Below, piece by piece: positions 15,001 to 18,000 of a stretch of 64,000 nucleotides of DNA. How positions within the stretch are numbered: the stretch's first letter is position 1; the number at the start of each line of letters is the position of its first letter. Origin of the DNA: Candidatus Poribacteria bacterium. Lineage in GTDB: Bacteria > Poribacteria > WGA-4E > PCPOR2b. The position numbers were made by a program. The DNA lies in the NCBI GenBank assembly GCA_965208325.1, contig OZ242326.1, positions 64,001 through 128,000 on the forward strand. The letters are read 5' to 3'.

Positions 15001-18000
15001 GCTCGCCTCGTAAATGTCTGATGAAATCGTCGGCTTCGTCCGTAATTTCGGAGACCCCTAAATTTACATAGATGCTGTTATTTTTGATTTCACACCTCAG
15101 ACGCCCAGCCTCTTCCGTCAATATTTCTTGAATCTCTTTTAATTGAGCCTTAAGGTTCTCTACCAGCAAGCAAGCAATCATAATTATATGAATCCCTAAC
15201 CCCGTCTAAAATACTTAACTAAATAATACTATTTATACGTTACCCAGTCAAGAAAAAAATCACCCCGAATAATCATTCGCCGAATTCTTCCGAAAAGGCG
15301 GCAACGAATACTGTGCTACGGCGCGTTACGGCTGGTCAATACAGGTCGGGGATTGGGGGTAAGCTTCTGTAGGTTGGGTAGATCAATCAACCGACCGAAC
15401 AGTCTTTGAAACCGAGTTTTTTATAGTTTGTATCAAATGACCCCATGAGTTAAACTGATAACAGATGTTATTTCCATCAATTACCATGAATCCATGGAGG
15501 TCATTATGAAACCACAAAGTCATTCAAACTACGGTATCAATCGTCTGGAATCAAAGACGGCGAGAGCGGCAATTATTCAGAAGATTGCGTCAGACTTCAA
15601 TCTGATGCCTATCCTTGCCGAAGCCTACTATAATCAGATTTCTTCCTACTTTGCCCAACACGCCGATATTAAACTCACATCAGGCCAAATCTGCTATGAA
15701 GCCGTAGCCGCCGACGAACCCGCAGGTAAACACATTGCCTTAGCCAAAAAGGTCTCCTGCCAACTCACCCTCAATGATGTGCACACCGATCTTGAGGTGT
15801 TAGCCAACTATGGACTTGCAGGACTCAGACGACATCGAATCTTACGGTTAACCAAACAAGCCTATGACCAAGACGCTTTGCTCAGCTATGAAGATTTAGC
15901 GGTGCTATTAACCACCAGCCCGGCGACCGTCAAACGAGACATTCGACAGTTGAAACAGCAAGGGTTTTTTGTAATGACTCGCGGCGCCAAACACGACATG
16001 GGCCCCGGCATCTCTCATAAAACCCAAATCCTAGAACTGTACTTTAAAGGCTATCAATTCACCGACATTGAGCGAAAGACGAACCACACCGAACGCGCCG
16101 TGTTGAGATACTTGCGTAATTTCACTCAGGTAGCAACCCTCCATCATCAAGACTTTCCAAAGGAACAGATACGGCTCATCACCCATCTCTCTGACCGATT
16201 GATTCGTGAGTATCTCTCCCTGTATGATAAATACGAACATACAGAGCGAATGACGACTTTACTTCATCCTGAACCCGTTGATGAAAAAAAGGGGGAAAAC
16301 TCATGAGTAAATCATTGACTCGAACCGAAATCAACGAGAAGAAAATCAGACGTATCAATGATAAATCGTTGCGGCAGTTGCTGATTCATCGCTTTATCAA
16401 TTCCTATGGGTATGACAAAGGCGAAGTGACTGCCAAAGCCATTGTCGATGACATCGTCAAAACTATTGAAGACTATTTCCTGATTCGCTTGCCACTTGAT
16501 AAACTCGCCGCTGGAGAACAACTTCCTGATGAACGAATGCTTAGCTATGGTCAACTGGTTTGGATGGCTGTGCCGATTGACGAATATCCACAGAGAGCCA
16601 AGTCAATCGTTAAAACCCGCATGAAGCCTGTGGTTTTAAGCTTTGTGGCCCCCGAGGACATTGAACACTATTACAGCGGCTTCAGCTCTCGTGAACTCAG
16701 AATTCATCGATTGGTGCGATGGTGTTATCAAGCCTATGACCAAGGGGCATTGTTGACTCAACTAGACCTGGCTGTGTTGCTCAACGTCCGCGACCCAGTA
16801 GTGAGTGAGTATGTCAACGAGTGGCAAAGCACCAGTGGAAAAATCTTGCCCACTCGCGGCAACATTCACGATTTATCGGCGGCAATTACACACAAGAAGG
16901 AGATTATTACCCTTTATCTACAAGGGCACCTGACTCCGACCATTGCTGCCAAAACCAAGCACTCCAAAGAAGCTGTTGACCGATACATCCATGATTATGA
17001 GTCCGTTAAGATTGTTCGCACCGCTACCGATGACATTGACAAAATCTCTCAGATTACCAAACTTTCCAAGCGCGTCATCTCTCAATATCTCGACCTAATT
17101 CCTCAACATTCGCTGAATGACATCAACGCAAACTTGGAAGACGGCAAAGATAACACCGTGCCGTCCAGTTCCAAACCTACAGGAGACTTGCAATGACAGC
17201 ATACGCCTATTATTGCTTAGACATGGGAAAACAACGTCTCTTTCTTTGGCATCGGCTTGGCACGCCATAGCCATTTTGGTATACTTTGTCACGCTTCTAG
17301 CCAAACCAAATGAATTTCTTGACGGATAAGCTAATTAAGCCAACATAACTCGCTCATTTGATGATGGCTCGAAGTCAGTAACCACGCGCATTCCAACTAT
17401 CATCAGGTCATTTGATACTATTTTCTTCAAAACTCGGTTTCTTAATCGCAGCAAAACCTGTACTTTAGCCCCAGCGGGGCGGCAGGTATATAGAAAACAC
17501 AGTAACCCAATCCCCAAAGCCCCAGATGAGAATCAACCGACCGAATAGAGAGGGATCAACTGAGCGGATAGCGAAGGCGATAGTCTTCTCAAGTTATTAT
17601 AGTTCTTGTAGGTTGGGTAGAGCGGATTCATCCAAAAACATCCATGAAAACGAACCGCCCTGTCAACCGCAACACGTACAAAATTCGAGGCTTGTAGCGA
17701 AACCCAACGCTTTTAAAACCTCACCCATCCCAATTGATTACCAAACACCAACACCGCTGCTAATCCCGGACAACCCTTTTTCCATGAACCTACCCCCAAT
17801 GGTTAAACAATCATGCTTGTCCAATAAGGTGTAAGTGCTAGGAAATCCGGCTACGCTTCATAACCGAATGATCATGTGCGCTCTTAATCATCGCCCATCA
17901 TTCAATCAAAAAAATCACAGTTCAGACAGTTCTTGTAGGTTGGGATTAATTCAGCGCCTAGATCAACCGACTGTATAAGGCGCGCAATAGCGTTTTTGCA

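What a model noticed while it worked through the whole genome (the two positions that open the first line are those of the whole stretch)
15405..17442. Hairpin-loop-targeting insertion element that encodes only two DUF1670 proteins
Four 99.9%-identical 2.0-kb copies of an element that encodes only two overlapping DUF1670 proteins (266 and 297 aa) each sit exactly in the loop of a 32-nt palindromic repeat, GAAACCGAGTTTT-TTCTTC-AAAACTCGGTTTC, of which about 100 uninterrupted copies are scattered over the genome. I read it as a new family of insertion sequence whose DUF1670 pair is a so far unrecognised transposase or recombinase that is aimed at a DNA hairpin. It would give DUF1670 a function and add a site-specific mobile element without DDE, HUH, serine or classical tyrosine recombinase genes.
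Evidence so far: Copies at C1:79405-81442(+), 2033857-2035893(-), 3760047-3762082(-), 3854589-3856625(+), 99.85-99.95% identical over 2037-2045 bp; genes g00068/69, g01635/36, g03067/68, g03138/39, Pfam DUF1670 only (plus weak HTH_DeoR). All four are flanked by the two halves of the hairpin and have inner inverted ends ATAGTTTGTATCAAATGACC...GGTCATTTGATACTAT. The orthologous site in a genome of the same genus (G035:C1:4002380-4002540) has the intact hairpin and no element, with the same flanks. 103 intact hairpins of 30-61 nt (74 of 32 nt), 16 inside gene calls. Full copies differ between relatives: none seen in two genomes of the genus, 2 in a third, 5 in G051; many metagenome contigs of about 2.0 kb hold j [...]
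(Added by a program. Inside this text positions count along the whole contig: contig position 64,001 is position 1 of the stretch shown here. "Call 12" and the like, gene names such as g00115 and contig names such as C1 are that model's own, and its searches are not shown. The text may have been shortened before it was handed on; [...] marks where a part breaks off. The agent that wrote the report below was given it as the finding of a first reader that could run no searches.)

Follow-up and report, generated by a model that had tools for sequence, protein, structure and literature searches.

The report
Two-gene DUF1670 insertion element in hairpins
A 2-kb jumping DNA element that carries only two related DNA-binding genes of unknown function has recently copied itself into the loops of a small repeated hairpin in this sponge-symbiont genome, while its relatives land on the last codon of secreted-protein genes, and no known DNA-cutting enzyme is encoded in it.

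Summary
G000 has four 99.85-100% identical copies of a 2,001-bp element (window 15423-17423). Each sits in the loop of a 32/33-nt hairpin, and a sister genome has the same site empty. Its only genes are two overlapping DUF1670 paralogues.

- There is no target duplication. The element ends in ...ACTATTT and inserts after a TT.
- The hairpin is not the family's general target. Of 74 distinct sites in Poribacteria, 54 are the last Lys codon of T9SS-tail genes, and the element supplies Lys plus stop. Hairpin use is confined to one clade.
- The hairpin is a REP with its own RAYT-like gene.

Both genes are under purifying selection. Copies within a genome are often 99.6-100% alike. Derivatives without the genes are at most 92% alike in genomes that lack DUF1670.

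No catalytic fold was found: only HTH and winged-HTH domains and a weak HU/IHF-like N-terminal domain. So this is an autonomous, undescribed insertion-sequence family, but whether the DUF1670 pair catalyses strand exchange or recruits a host enzyme stays open. This scan had noted the family on other DNA before.

The parts
15408..15420 (.). Left arm of the interrupted REP-type hairpin (GAAACCGAGTTTT)
   Evidence: Read. The same arm flanks all four copies. The uninterrupted hairpin is present at the syntenic site of G002.
15421..15422 (.). TT of the hairpin loop directly left of the element. This is the insertion point and a possible 2-bp crossover core.
   Evidence: 73 of 74 distinct sites have TT here.
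15423..17423 (+). The mobile element, 2,001 bp, ATAGTTTG...GATACTATTT
   Evidence: Matches to relatives in other genera stop at these ends. The empty site in G002 fits these ends.
15423..15442 (+). Left terminal inverted repeat, ATAG-TTTG-TATCAAATGACC (13-bp core GTATCAAATGACC at 15430-15442)
   Evidence: Nucleotide diversity is 0.056 over the first 35 nt across 74 copies, against 0.32 in the leader behind it. The first 29-36 nt are 92-100% identical even in derivatives without the genes.
15506..16306 (+). ORF1, DUF1670 protein (266 aa from the ATG behind GGAGG; 270 aa from the first ATG at 15494)
   Evidence: PF07900 E 7.6e-64. Diversity by codon position is 0.10/0.06/0.37. Model pLDDT 76.9.
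16303..17196 (+). ORF2, DUF1670 paralogue (297 aa), overlapping ORF1 by ATGA
   Evidence: PF07900 E 1.1e-59. 34% identical to ORF1 over 186 residues, E 2e-27. Diversity by codon position is 0.09/0.04/0.34.
17257..17285 (+). Conserved sigma-70-type promoter-like site (TTGGCA-17-TATACT with TG) pointing out through the right end
   Evidence: 10 of 12 matches, the best in the region. The hexamers are kept in the 46 distinct 3' regions aligned.
17406..17423 (+). Right terminal inverted repeat GGTCATTTGATAC-TATTT. The tip CTATTT resembles the target hexamer YTAYTT.
   Evidence: Diversity is 0.11 over the last 38 nt.
17424..17441 (.). Rest of the hairpin loop (TCTTC) and right arm (AAAACTCGGTTTC)

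Best explanation
Window 15423-17423 is one of four fresh copies of an autonomous, site-specific insertion element of an undescribed family. Its whole coding content is two paralogous DUF1670 proteins. Each appears built from an HU/IHF-like N-terminal domain, a winged HTH and further HTH units.

Proposed mechanism (inferred):
1. The two proteins act together, probably as a heteromer.
2. They bind the 13-bp inverted repeats at both ends and a target that carries ...YTAYTT|C....
3. They insert the element without duplicating the target. The most likely route is conservative site-specific recombination between a joined-ends form, whose junction reads GATA-CTAT-TT-ATAG, and the target TT.
4. The outward promoter near the right end would drive ORF1-ORF2 only across such a junction.

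I commit to the reading that the DUF1670 pair itself carries out strand breakage and joining. The nearly invariant Arg/His/His/Tyr positions shared by both paralogues would then form a tyrosine-type active site built on an HTH scaffold.

Shown:
- the element's limits and the empty site;
- the absence of duplication;
- the target classes;
- the single-clade switch to REP hairpin loops;
- purifying selection on both genes;
- recent bursts only of gene-bearing copies.

Inferred:
- heteromer formation;
- a circular intermediate;
- the role of the promoter;
- the chemistry.
For: Mobility and limits:
- Four copies are 99.85-100% alike, and the site is empty in G002.
- Matches in other genera stop at ATAG.../...CTATTT.

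No duplication:
- The 7-T loop of the empty site equals 6 T plus 1 T around an element that ends in TTT.
- The right junction is always ACTATTT, while the left flank varies: TTACTT 21, CTATTT 13, TTTTTT 12, CTACTT 9, TTATTT 7, TCACTT 6 and six other hexamers once each, of 74.

The genes are needed:
- Both ORFs are intact in 69 of 74 copies, and 2 more carry them fused as 564 aa.
- Third-position diversity is 4-8 times that of positions 1 and 2.
- In 9 of 11 genomes with 2 or more copies, the most similar pair is at least 99.85% identical.
- Derivatives with the same ends and target but without the genes (0.7-kb and 1.3-1.6-kb forms) are at most 92% alike.
- Those derivatives lie in genomes of 97-99% completeness with 0 DUF1670 matches: G007, G010, G017 and G023.

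No other candidate enzyme in G000: 0 matches to Transposase_31 or to the Rpn-like protein P0271.

Target choice is inherited with the element: all 13 hairpin sites fall in one clade.

The two proteins work together: they are paralogues, and family members exist with two or three DUF1670 units in one chain and no other domain.

Candidate active-site residues: R163 is invariant, and R118, E133, D134, H175, H198, Y206 and Y240 are at least 90% conserved at 28-57% identity. Their counterparts R185, H197, H220, Y228 and Y262 are invariant in the ORF2 alignment.

Precedent: type IIA topoisomerases carry their catalytic tyrosine in a winged-helix domain with an HTH fold (PMC7614492, passage read).

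Architecture in a distant relative: one element, about 37% identical in ORF1 (L124), has two overlapping DUF1670 ORFs between 23-nt inverted repeats.
Against: - No catalytic fold was recognised. For full-length ORF1, the best Foldseek E is 0.12, and VIA-align gives only wHTH and TrpR-like HTH matches with Z of 6.6 or less.
- The N-terminal domain model (pLDDT 93.8) matches only HU/IHF-type proteins, and weakly: Foldseek E 0.09-0.6, and 1ihf_A at Z 5.6 over 39 residues.
- The PDB profile search returns transcription regulators (best E 0.054) and, more weakly, a site-determining protein. The protein atlas returns only HTH clusters.
- The conserved His, His and Tyr lie in predicted HTH helices, where DNA contact alone could explain their conservation.
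- H80 of the strongly conserved EPAGKH loop is not conserved across the family.
- No joined-ends (circle) junction appeared among the listed joints of four runs. These were contigs only, not raw reads.
- The link between recent activity and presence of the genes rests on few, related genomes.
Confidence: 0.45

Rival explanations
1. The DUF1670 pair provides only DNA recognition and architecture: end binding, target choice and bending. A host enzyme present in all hosts does the cutting and joining. Candidates are a Xer-type tyrosine recombinase, a topoisomerase or a repair nuclease with ligase. The model would be the integrative elements that exploit Xer and carry no recombinase of their own (recalled, not read here).
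For: - Every recognisable part is a DNA-binding fold: wHTH at residues 103-170, HTH at 200-259, and a weak HU/IHF-like N-terminal domain whose conserved EPAGK loop sits between its two beta strands.
- Fused family members add no further domain.
- The hairpin target has the 13-6-13 layout of a recombinase core site.
- REPs are known binding sites of gyrase, Pol I and IHF (PMC1525189, Background passage).
- Insertion without duplication also fits a borrowed conservative recombinase.
Against: - There are 74 distinct sites of two unrelated sequence classes. None is shown to resemble a host recombination site.
- The family ranges from Poribacteria to a Methanosarcina control genome and a Gemmatimonadota record, so the host partner would have to be nearly universal.
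- No host gene was found to go with the element. I did not search for one systematically.
Confidence: 0.35
2. The element is non-autonomous. Its ends are served by a transposase encoded elsewhere, for example the Transposase_31/Rpn-like PD-(D/E)XK protein found between identical ends in the sister genus, or the REP-associated Y1 transposase. The DUF1670 genes would then be passengers or regulators.
For: - In G007, G010, G017 and G023, elements with the same 33-nt left end, right end and gene-end target carry a 316-332-aa Transposase_31 gene in place of the DUF1670 genes (PF04754, E 2.8e-31 to 1.2e-29).
- These elements occupy at least 6 distinct sites.
- G000 has two Y1_Tnp genes, one of them flanked by the hairpins.
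Against: - G000 has no Transposase_31 match and no match to P0271, yet holds four copies that are 99.85-100% alike.
- The Rpn-bearing forms keep a 124-nt piece of ORF2 joined to the last 62-101 nt of the element, so they derive from a DUF1670 element.
- Of 20 further Rpn-like gene loci fetched, only 4 have both ends (one of them the locus already held as L011), 5 have the right end only and 11 have none. Likeness between copies covers the ORF plus or minus about 18 nt. The Rpn unit therefore spreads without these ends.
- Rpn-bearing and miniature forms are at most 92% alike.
- Most family members sit at gene ends with no REP nearby, which rules out the RAYT as the general enzyme.
Confidence: 0.08
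3. The hairpin halves are the true ends of the element. The roughly 100 'intact hairpins' would then be its excision footprints or minimal two-end derivatives, not a pre-existing target.
For: All four copies in G000 and 13 of 74 sites overall are bracketed by the two halves. An empty site with an intact hairpin cannot by itself tell insertion from excision.
Against: - In 61 of 74 sites the same element ends abut sequence with no hairpin.
- DNA matches to other genera stop at ATAG.../...CTATTT, inside the hairpin halves.
- Two copies in G002 that are 99.85% alike sit one in a hairpin and one elsewhere.
- The hairpins flank a RAYT-like gene on both sides, as REPs do.
Confidence: 0.03

Closest known systems
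REP-targeting insertion sequences (IS1397 and ISKpn1 of the IS3 family; IS621, ISPpu9/10 and ISPa11 of the IS110 family)
   Same: They insert specifically into repetitive extragenic palindromes, as the G000 copies do. REP targeting is reported for five IS families (PMC1525189, abstract and passages). ISPpu9 sits in REPs and forms circular intermediates (PMC12288879, abstract start in the listing).
   Different: Those elements encode DDE or DEDD transposases. This one has only DUF1670 proteins. REP use here is a derived habit of one clade, and the family's main target is a gene end.
IS110/IS1111 family
   Same: They show site-specific insertion. Typically they make no target duplication and have a sizeable non-coding region (IS110/IS1111 features from the abstract start of 10.1101/2024.04.26.591405 in the listing; the rest recalled).
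   Different: No DEDD transposase domain is present. Clear 13-bp terminal inverted repeats are present. The 3' non-coding region shows no covariation: 0 of 22 predicted pairs are compensatory. It has no Rfam match beyond a chance-level hit, E 0.27.
Integrative elements that exploit host Xer recombinases (IMEX; recalled, not read here)
   Same: They are mobile DNA without a recombinase gene of their own, some with a small HTH activator. They integrate conservatively without duplication.
   Different: IMEX integrate at the single chromosomal dif site. This family uses at least 74 sites of two classes and multiplies within a genome, with up to 14 copies fetched from one assembly.
Tn7 insertion at attTn7 through TnsD (recalled, not read here)
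   Same: It uses the conserved 3' end of a protein-coding gene as a safe landing site, and the gene stays intact.
   Different: Tn7 inserts downstream of one gene, makes a 5-bp duplication and encodes TnsA/TnsB catalysis. This element lands inside the last codon of a whole gene family and rebuilds Lys plus stop from its own end.

Membership tests
Pfam DUF1670 (PF07900) | Profile match above the gathering score | tested here: met
   ORF1 scores 215.5 bits and ORF2 201.9 bits, against a cut-off of 25.
Insertion sequence (generic) | Several near-identical copies at unrelated loci, and an empty site in a relative | tested here: met
   Four copies are 99.85-100% alike. The site is empty in G002. 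There are 74 distinct sites in Poribacteria.
Insertion sequence (generic) | Terminal inverted repeats | tested here: met
   GTATCAAATGACC and GGTCATTTGATAC form a 13-bp perfect repeat, and the tips ATAG and CTAT are also inverted.
Insertion sequence (generic) | Encodes a transposase of a recognised catalytic class | tested here: inconclusive
   Pfam (E up to 1), NCBIfam, the PDB profile search and the fold searches give only DNA-binding folds. Absence from fold lists does not exclude a divergent enzyme.
DDE transposons (IS3, IS630/Tc1 and the like) | Target-site duplication of fixed length | tested here: not met
   The 7-T loop of the empty site equals 6 T plus 1 T around the element. The right junction is constant and the left one varies.
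DDE transposons (IS3, IS630/Tc1 and the like) | RNase-H-like DDE domain | tested here: inconclusive
   No Pfam DDE or rve family appears at E up to 1, and none is in the fold lists. About 270-300 aa filled by three DNA-binding modules leaves little room for one.
Tyrosine recombinases | Phage_integrase-type catalytic domain with the R-K-H-R-H/W-Y set | tested here: inconclusive
   There is no PF00589 match at E up to 1 and no integrase in the fold lists. Near-invariant R163, H175, H198 and Y206 exist but lie in predicted HTH helices.
Serine recombinases | Resolvase-type catalytic domain; 2-bp crossover | tested here: inconclusive
   There is no PF00239 match at E up to 1. A TT is present on both sides of 73 of 74 insertions, which fits a 2-bp core but does not prove one.
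IS200/IS605 (HUH Y1) | Y1 transposase; subterminal hairpins instead of inverted repeats | tested here: not met
   ORF1 and ORF2 have no Y1_Tnp match, and the element has inverted repeats. Only the duplication-free insertion 3' of a short motif is alike.
IS110/IS1111 | DEDD transposase and a structured guide RNA in the non-coding region | tested here: not met
   There is no such Pfam match. RNAalifold on 26 and on 37 sequences gives 0 compensatory pairs. Rfam shows nothing above chance.
REP with RAYT (for the hairpin) | About 100 or more palindromic copies, and a Y1 transposase gene flanked by them | tested here: met
   There are 100-116 copies. The 188-aa ORF at G000:C1:3321737-3322303 has one hairpin 14 nt from its start and a cluster of hairpin copies and degenerate copies 17-156 nt beyond its stop. 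It matches NF047646 REP_Tyr_transpos at E 8.5e-21, though its 74.4 bits fall below the 80-bit cut-off.
T9SS type A sorting domain (for the gene-end target) | TIGR04183 match above the cut-off at the C-terminus | tested here: met
   One example was tested, L095:1100-1516: 33 bits against a cut-off of 23. Pfam PF18962 gives 23.9 bits, below its cut-off of 27. The other 53 sites were judged from the translated tail ...TRKM[LV]I[LR] only.

The most novel reading that the evidence does not exclude
DUF1670 is a new class of DNA transposase or recombinase. A heteromer of two paralogous, all-DNA-binding-fold proteins would itself perform conservative, duplication-free, site-specific insertion, with a tyrosine-type active site built on an HTH scaffold. 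Its target preference would be evolvable: within one clade it moved from a protein-coding motif (Lys plus stop of T9SS tails) to the loop of a REP hairpin.
Probability: 0.4. Interest if true: 0.92.

Novelty: new variant of a known kind. Interest (0 to 1): 0.78.

Why it matters
If the DUF1670 pair moves the element, a Pfam family of unknown function gains a role. HMMER finds 1,748 cluster representatives of that family at E up to 0.001. Mobile-DNA biology would also gain an insertion-sequence family whose chemistry is either new or borrowed from the host in a new way.

The element inserts to the base and without duplication. At gene ends it rebuilds the host's last codon and stop, so it is nearly harmless to the host. 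Its target preference changed within one lineage. These properties interest people who build site-specific insertion tools.

For genome annotation, these 2-kb units fragment sponge-symbiont assemblies, and their proteins carry source names such as 'biotin operon repressor' or 'hypothetical protein'.

I found no description in print. 'DUF1670' and 'PF07900' each gave 0 papers. The searches listed nothing on this element.

Tried and rejected
- **RNA guide in the 3' non-coding region.** This was suggested by the conserved promoter. RNAalifold on 37 sequences predicts 3 invariant pairs. On 26 gene-end-type sequences it predicts 22 pairs, none compensatory, with a consensus energy of -6.35. Rfam gives only sR2 at E 0.27. 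I found no stretch of the element that clearly matches either target class. The idea is not supported.
- **Three-base TTT duplication.** This was my first reading. I dropped it because the left copy is CTT in 36 of 74 sites while the right is always TTT, and because of the T count at the empty site.
- **Catalytic His in the EPAGKH loop.** H80 is Pro in most of the family.
- **Circle junction or excision in public data.** All 22 runs found are kept as contigs. Laying X1, X5, X6 and X18 showed no end-to-end joint among those listed (8 more were not shown). One joint, 15429 to 17421, appears in one contig each of X1 and X5. Only 25 letters lie on its shorter side, so I cannot interpret it. RNA-library contigs of X18 touch both ends and parts of both ORFs, but DNA carry-over cannot be excluded.
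- **Family-wide fetch of loci.** The single protein P0166 then gave one locus only.
- **Protein atlas.** It returned only HTH clusters, with scores of 0.80 or less.
- **Fold lists.** No integrase, resolvase, RNase-H-like, HUH or PD-(D/E)XK chain appears among the rows shown. Topoisomerase VI-A (1d3y_B, Z 6.0, 61 residues) is tied with many plain winged-helix proteins.
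Full report
**1. The observation**

Window 15408-15420 is GAAACCGAGTTTT. After two more T, the element starts at 15423 with ATAGTTTGTATCAAATGACC. 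It ends at 17423 with GGTCATTTGATACTATTT. TCTTC and AAAACTCGGTTTC (17429-17441) follow.

BLAST against the laid genome (4,707,648 bases, one contig) finds four full-length places at 99.853-100% identity. All four lie between the hairpin halves, in one orientation relative to the asymmetric loop.

The sense strand holds two long ORFs, 15494-16306 and 16303-17196. Both match DUF1670, at E 7.6e-64 and 1.1e-59. Besides that there are only weak HTH families in Pfam and sub-threshold regulator hits in NCBIfam. The two proteins are paralogues, 34% identical over 186 residues, E 2e-27. ORF1 probably starts at 15506, five bases after GGAGG. That gives the 266 aa of most homologues.

Intact hairpins number 100 with at most one substitution per arm, 71 of them 32 nt long. 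With at most two substitutions per arm there are 116, and 20 of those lie in open frames of 600 nt or more.

**2. Empty site and the question of duplication**

The 400 nt to the left of the window copy map to G002:C1:80461-80861. The first 77 nt to the right map to 80899-80974. The stretch between them is an uninterrupted hairpin with seven T before CTTC.

The occupied site has six T on the left. On the right, after ...ACTATTT, it has one T and then CTTC. So if TTT is the element's own end, nothing was duplicated. The other three copies sit in six-T loops in the same way.

Across 74 distinct sites the right junction is always ACTATTT. The six bases left of the element vary: TTACTT 21, CTATTT 13, TTTTTT 12, CTACTT 9, TTATTT 7, TCACTT 6, and six other hexamers once each. 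The last two bases are TT in 73 of 74.

This is not a duplication made by staggered cuts. It fits one of two events:
- blunt, duplication-free insertion 3' of TT;
- crossover in a TT core between the target and a joined-ends junction reading CTAT-TT-ATAG, which is a small palindrome around TT (read).

The target hexamer YTAYTT resembles the element's own tip, CTATTT.

**3. Who carries it and where it lands**

ORF1 has 946 relatives at E up to 0.001 in the 90% clusters. Many sit on contigs of about 2.0 kb. In one genome per species, 245 of 268 candidate stretches encode a relative. Of the best 80 records, 79 are titled Poribacteria and one 'uncultured bacterium'.

I found both ends in 75 of these 80 loci. 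Two are longer than 2.1 kb and were set aside. With the window copy this leaves 74 elements.

Their sites fall into three classes:
- 54 lie at the end of genes whose tail reads ...TAGDFTATRKM[LV]I[LR]K*.
- 13 lie in the hairpin loop.
- 7 lie elsewhere, two or three of which still look like such tails.

At the gene ends, the left flank is the reverse complement of Lys plus stop. The element's right end, read on the gene's strand, supplies AAA-TAG. The host ORF therefore keeps its last residue and gains a new stop.

One such tail in G000 matches the T9SS type A sorting domain, TIGR04183, at 33 bits against a cut-off of 23. G000 has about 29 such gene ends (31 pattern hits, two of them doubtful). 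Several are followed by decayed element ends, including a remnant of about 390 bp with both ends at 2139018-2139403.

A maximum-likelihood tree of the 74 elements places all 13 hairpin sites in one clade. One gene-end site (L022) and two other sites (L013, L023) lie inside that clade, and the clade is nested among gene-end users. Two copies in G002 that are 99.85% alike sit one in a hairpin and one elsewhere.

Hairpin use is therefore a derived preference that is inherited with the element. It is not the family's defining target.

**4. What the hairpin is**

G000 has two Y1_Tnp matches. One is a 188-aa ORF at G000:C1:3321737-3322303. It has a hairpin copy 14 nt from its start and a cluster of hairpin copies and degenerate copies 17-156 nt beyond its stop. 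It matches NCBIfam 'REP-associated tyrosine transposase' at E 8.5e-21, with 74.4 bits, just under the 80-bit cut-off.

The hairpin thus behaves as a REP family with its own RAYT-like gene. IS elements that target REPs are known from five families: IS3, IS110, IS4, IS256 and IS5 (PMC1525189, abstract and passages). The behaviour seen in G000 is therefore a known kind. The protein content is not.

**5. Do the DUF1670 genes matter for mobility?**

- **Intact genes under selection.** Both ORFs are intact in 69 of 74 copies, and two more have them fused into 564 aa. Nucleotide diversity by codon position is 0.10/0.06/0.37 for ORF1 and 0.09/0.04/0.34 for ORF2. The first 35 nt and the last 38 nt of the element are far more conserved (0.056 and 0.11) than the leader (0.32) or the 3' non-coding part (0.28).
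- **Recent bursts.** In 9 of 11 assemblies with two or more copies, the most similar pair is at least 99.85% identical.
- **Gene-less derivatives in the sister genus.** G007, G010, G017 and G023 (97-99% complete, single contigs) have no DUF1670 match. They do hold derivatives with the same ends at the same kind of gene end. These are forms of 0.7-0.8 kb and forms of 1.3-1.6 kb that carry, on the opposite strand, a 316-332-aa Transposase_31 (YhgA/Rpn-like, PD-(D/E)XK) gene.
- **The derivatives come from a DUF1670 element.** They are composites: the left 29-36 nt, the Rpn-like gene, a piece of ORF2 of up to 124 nt (element positions 1102/1115-1238 at most), and the last 62-101 nt.
- **The derivatives are old.** They occupy at least six distinct sites but are at most 92% alike.
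- **The Rpn-like gene spreads on its own.** Of 20 further loci fetched, 4 have both ends (one of them the locus already held as L011), 5 have the right end only and 11 have none. Likeness between copies covers the ORF plus or minus about 18 nt.
- **G000 has no such gene.** It has no Transposase_31 match and no match to that protein.

Taken together, recent movement is seen only where DUF1670 genes are present. Gene-less derivatives look like old passengers that were moved in trans. This is correlative evidence and rests on few, related genomes.

**6. What the proteins look like**

*Full-length ORF1.* The model was built from 39 aligned sequences and has pLDDT 76.9. Its layout is two helices, a beta hairpin, a long helix, a winged HTH and further HTH units. 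Foldseek against the PDB gives nothing better than E 0.12. VIA-align against 48,161 chains gives winged-helix regulators for residues 103-170 and TrpR-like HTH for 200-259, with a best Z of 6.6.

*N-terminal 110 residues alone.* This model was built from 29 diverse sequences and has pLDDT 93.8. Its best matches are weak but nearly all from one family, HU/IHF-type proteins. Foldseek gives E 0.09-0.6 with probability up to 0.8. VIA-align gives 1ihf_A at Z 5.6 over 39 residues. The conserved EPAGK motif lies in the loop between the two beta strands. I treat this as a lead, since Z values under 8 are common by chance.

*Other searches.* The PDB profile search returns transcription regulators, best E 0.054, and more weakly a site-determining protein. 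The protein atlas returns only HTH clusters.

*Family-wide picture.* HMMER finds 1,748 cluster representatives at E up to 0.001. They include chains with two DUF1670 units (about 500-660 aa) and three units (930-952 aa), with no other domain.

*Conserved residues.* At 28-57% identity, R163 is invariant. G64, G78, R118, Q126, L130, E133, D134, T145, G164, G170, H175, H198, Y206, F210, I226 and Y240 are at least 90% conserved. The counterparts R185, H197, H220, Y228 and Y262 are invariant in the ORF2 alignment.

An Arg/His/His/Tyr set would suit tyrosine-type, conservative chemistry, which in turn would fit duplication-free insertion. Type IIA topoisomerases do carry their catalytic tyrosine in a winged-helix domain with an HTH fold (PMC7614492, passage). 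But the same residues may simply contact DNA.

**7. The promoter**

The best promoter-like site of the region is at 17257-17285 on the + strand: TTGGCA, 17 nt, TATACT preceded by TG, 10 of 12 matches. Both hexamers are conserved in the 46 distinct 3' regions I aligned. It points out through the last 140 nt or so of the element.

The scan found no site between the left end and ORF1. One inference follows, without direct support here: in a joined-ends or tandem form, this promoter would sit upstream of ORF1-ORF2.

The region downstream of the promoter shows no covariation.

**8. A distant relative**

A metagenome contig of 1,848 nt (L124) encodes an ORF1 78% identical to P0166, which is itself about 37% identical to the window's ORF1. 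The contig has two overlapping DUF1670 ORFs of 263 and 255 aa, at E 1.6e-60 and 5.1e-59. They lie between 23-nt inverted repeats that are 87% complementary. The same 11-nt string, ATACAAAATAA, abuts both ends.

This is one case only. It shows that the two-gene-plus-repeats layout is not peculiar to Poribacteria. The flanking direct repeat would fit a shared recombination core, but it could also be a duplication.

**9. Verdict**

The element is real, recently active and almost certainly autonomous. 'Aimed at a hairpin' is true only of this clade. 'DUF1670 is the transposase' remains the leading but unproven reading.

| Reading | My odds |
|---|---|
| The DUF1670 pair catalyses strand exchange itself | about 0.45 |
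| The pair recognises and shapes DNA; a host enzyme cuts and joins | about 0.35 |
| Another transposase acts in trans | about 0.08 |
| The hairpin halves are the element's own ends | about 0.03 |

Earlier notes of this scan describe the same family on other DNA: gene-end and hairpin targets, an outward promoter, and no catalytic domain. I had reached the gene-end target and the promoter from my own calls (9, 17, 20, 28, 30) before reading those notes, and I do not count them as evidence.

In the paper library I found no description. 'DUF1670' and 'PF07900' each return 0 papers, and the searches list nothing on it.

Noticed in passing
G000:C1:3321582-3322350 (outside the window; locus L094 283-1050): A 188-aa RAYT-like gene (NF047646, E 8.5e-21, 74.4 bits, under the 80-bit cut-off) has the 32-nt hairpin 14 nt from its start and a cluster of copies and degenerate copies beyond its stop. 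The hairpin family therefore looks like a REP with its own Y1 transposase. A second Y1_Tnp match, at 1955941-1956273, has no hairpin within 14 kb.
   Followed up: partly
Loci L097, L101, L102, L103, L011, L104, L116, L120 (genus g5: G007, G010, G018, G023): Composite elements have the DUF1670 element's ends and gene-end target but carry a Transposase_31/Rpn-like PD-(D/E)XK gene on the opposite strand plus a piece of ORF2 of up to 124 nt. The Rpn-like gene is also dispersed on its own (10-23 matches in G010, G018 and G023, 4 in G007), with likeness limited to the ORF plus or minus about 18 nt. How that minimal unit spreads is unexplained.
   Followed up: partly
window 17257-17423: A strongly conserved outward-facing promoter-like site is followed by about 140 nt of conserved but non-covarying sequence. 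That sequence contains an internal copy of the repeat core (TCATTTGAT at 17355-17363) in the hairpin clade.
   Followed up: partly
G000:C1:2139018-2139403, 2325643, 2657334, 2718953, 4057034, 4459142 (outside the window): Decayed element ends lie directly after T9SS-tail gene stops in G000. One is a remnant of about 390 bp with both ends. They show older gene-end insertions in a genome whose four live copies all sit in hairpins.
   Followed up: partly
window 10907-15181 (- strand): A 1,051-aa DnaE-type polymerase (PHP, DNA_pol3_alpha, finger and HHH_6 domains) follows a 266-aa ORF with no Pfam match. The layout resembles an error-prone imuB-dnaE2-type cassette (name recalled). It ends about 230 nt from the element.
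   Followed up: no
window 18682-22959 (+ strand): A 1,425-aa ORF has a weak N-terminal Cap4-type dsDNA endonuclease match (E 4.6e-5, 24.1 bits, under the 26.2 cut-off) and a TPR hit. It may be a defence-type protein.
   Followed up: no
window 15250-15404 and 17443-17640, and genome-wide: Both flanks of the element consist largely of other short dispersed repeat families with dozens of copies each. One example is GGATCAACTGACCGAATAGGGAAGGCGATAG. Some of them form arrays with spacings of about 160, 194 and 216 nt together with the hairpin.
   Followed up: no
L124:1-1848 (metagenome contig): A distant DUF1670 two-gene element has a 12-bp palindrome (GGACATATGTCC) in each end and the same 11-nt string (ATACAAAATAA) abutting both ends. 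This could be a shared recombination core or a long duplication, unlike the Poribacteria subfamily.
   Followed up: partly
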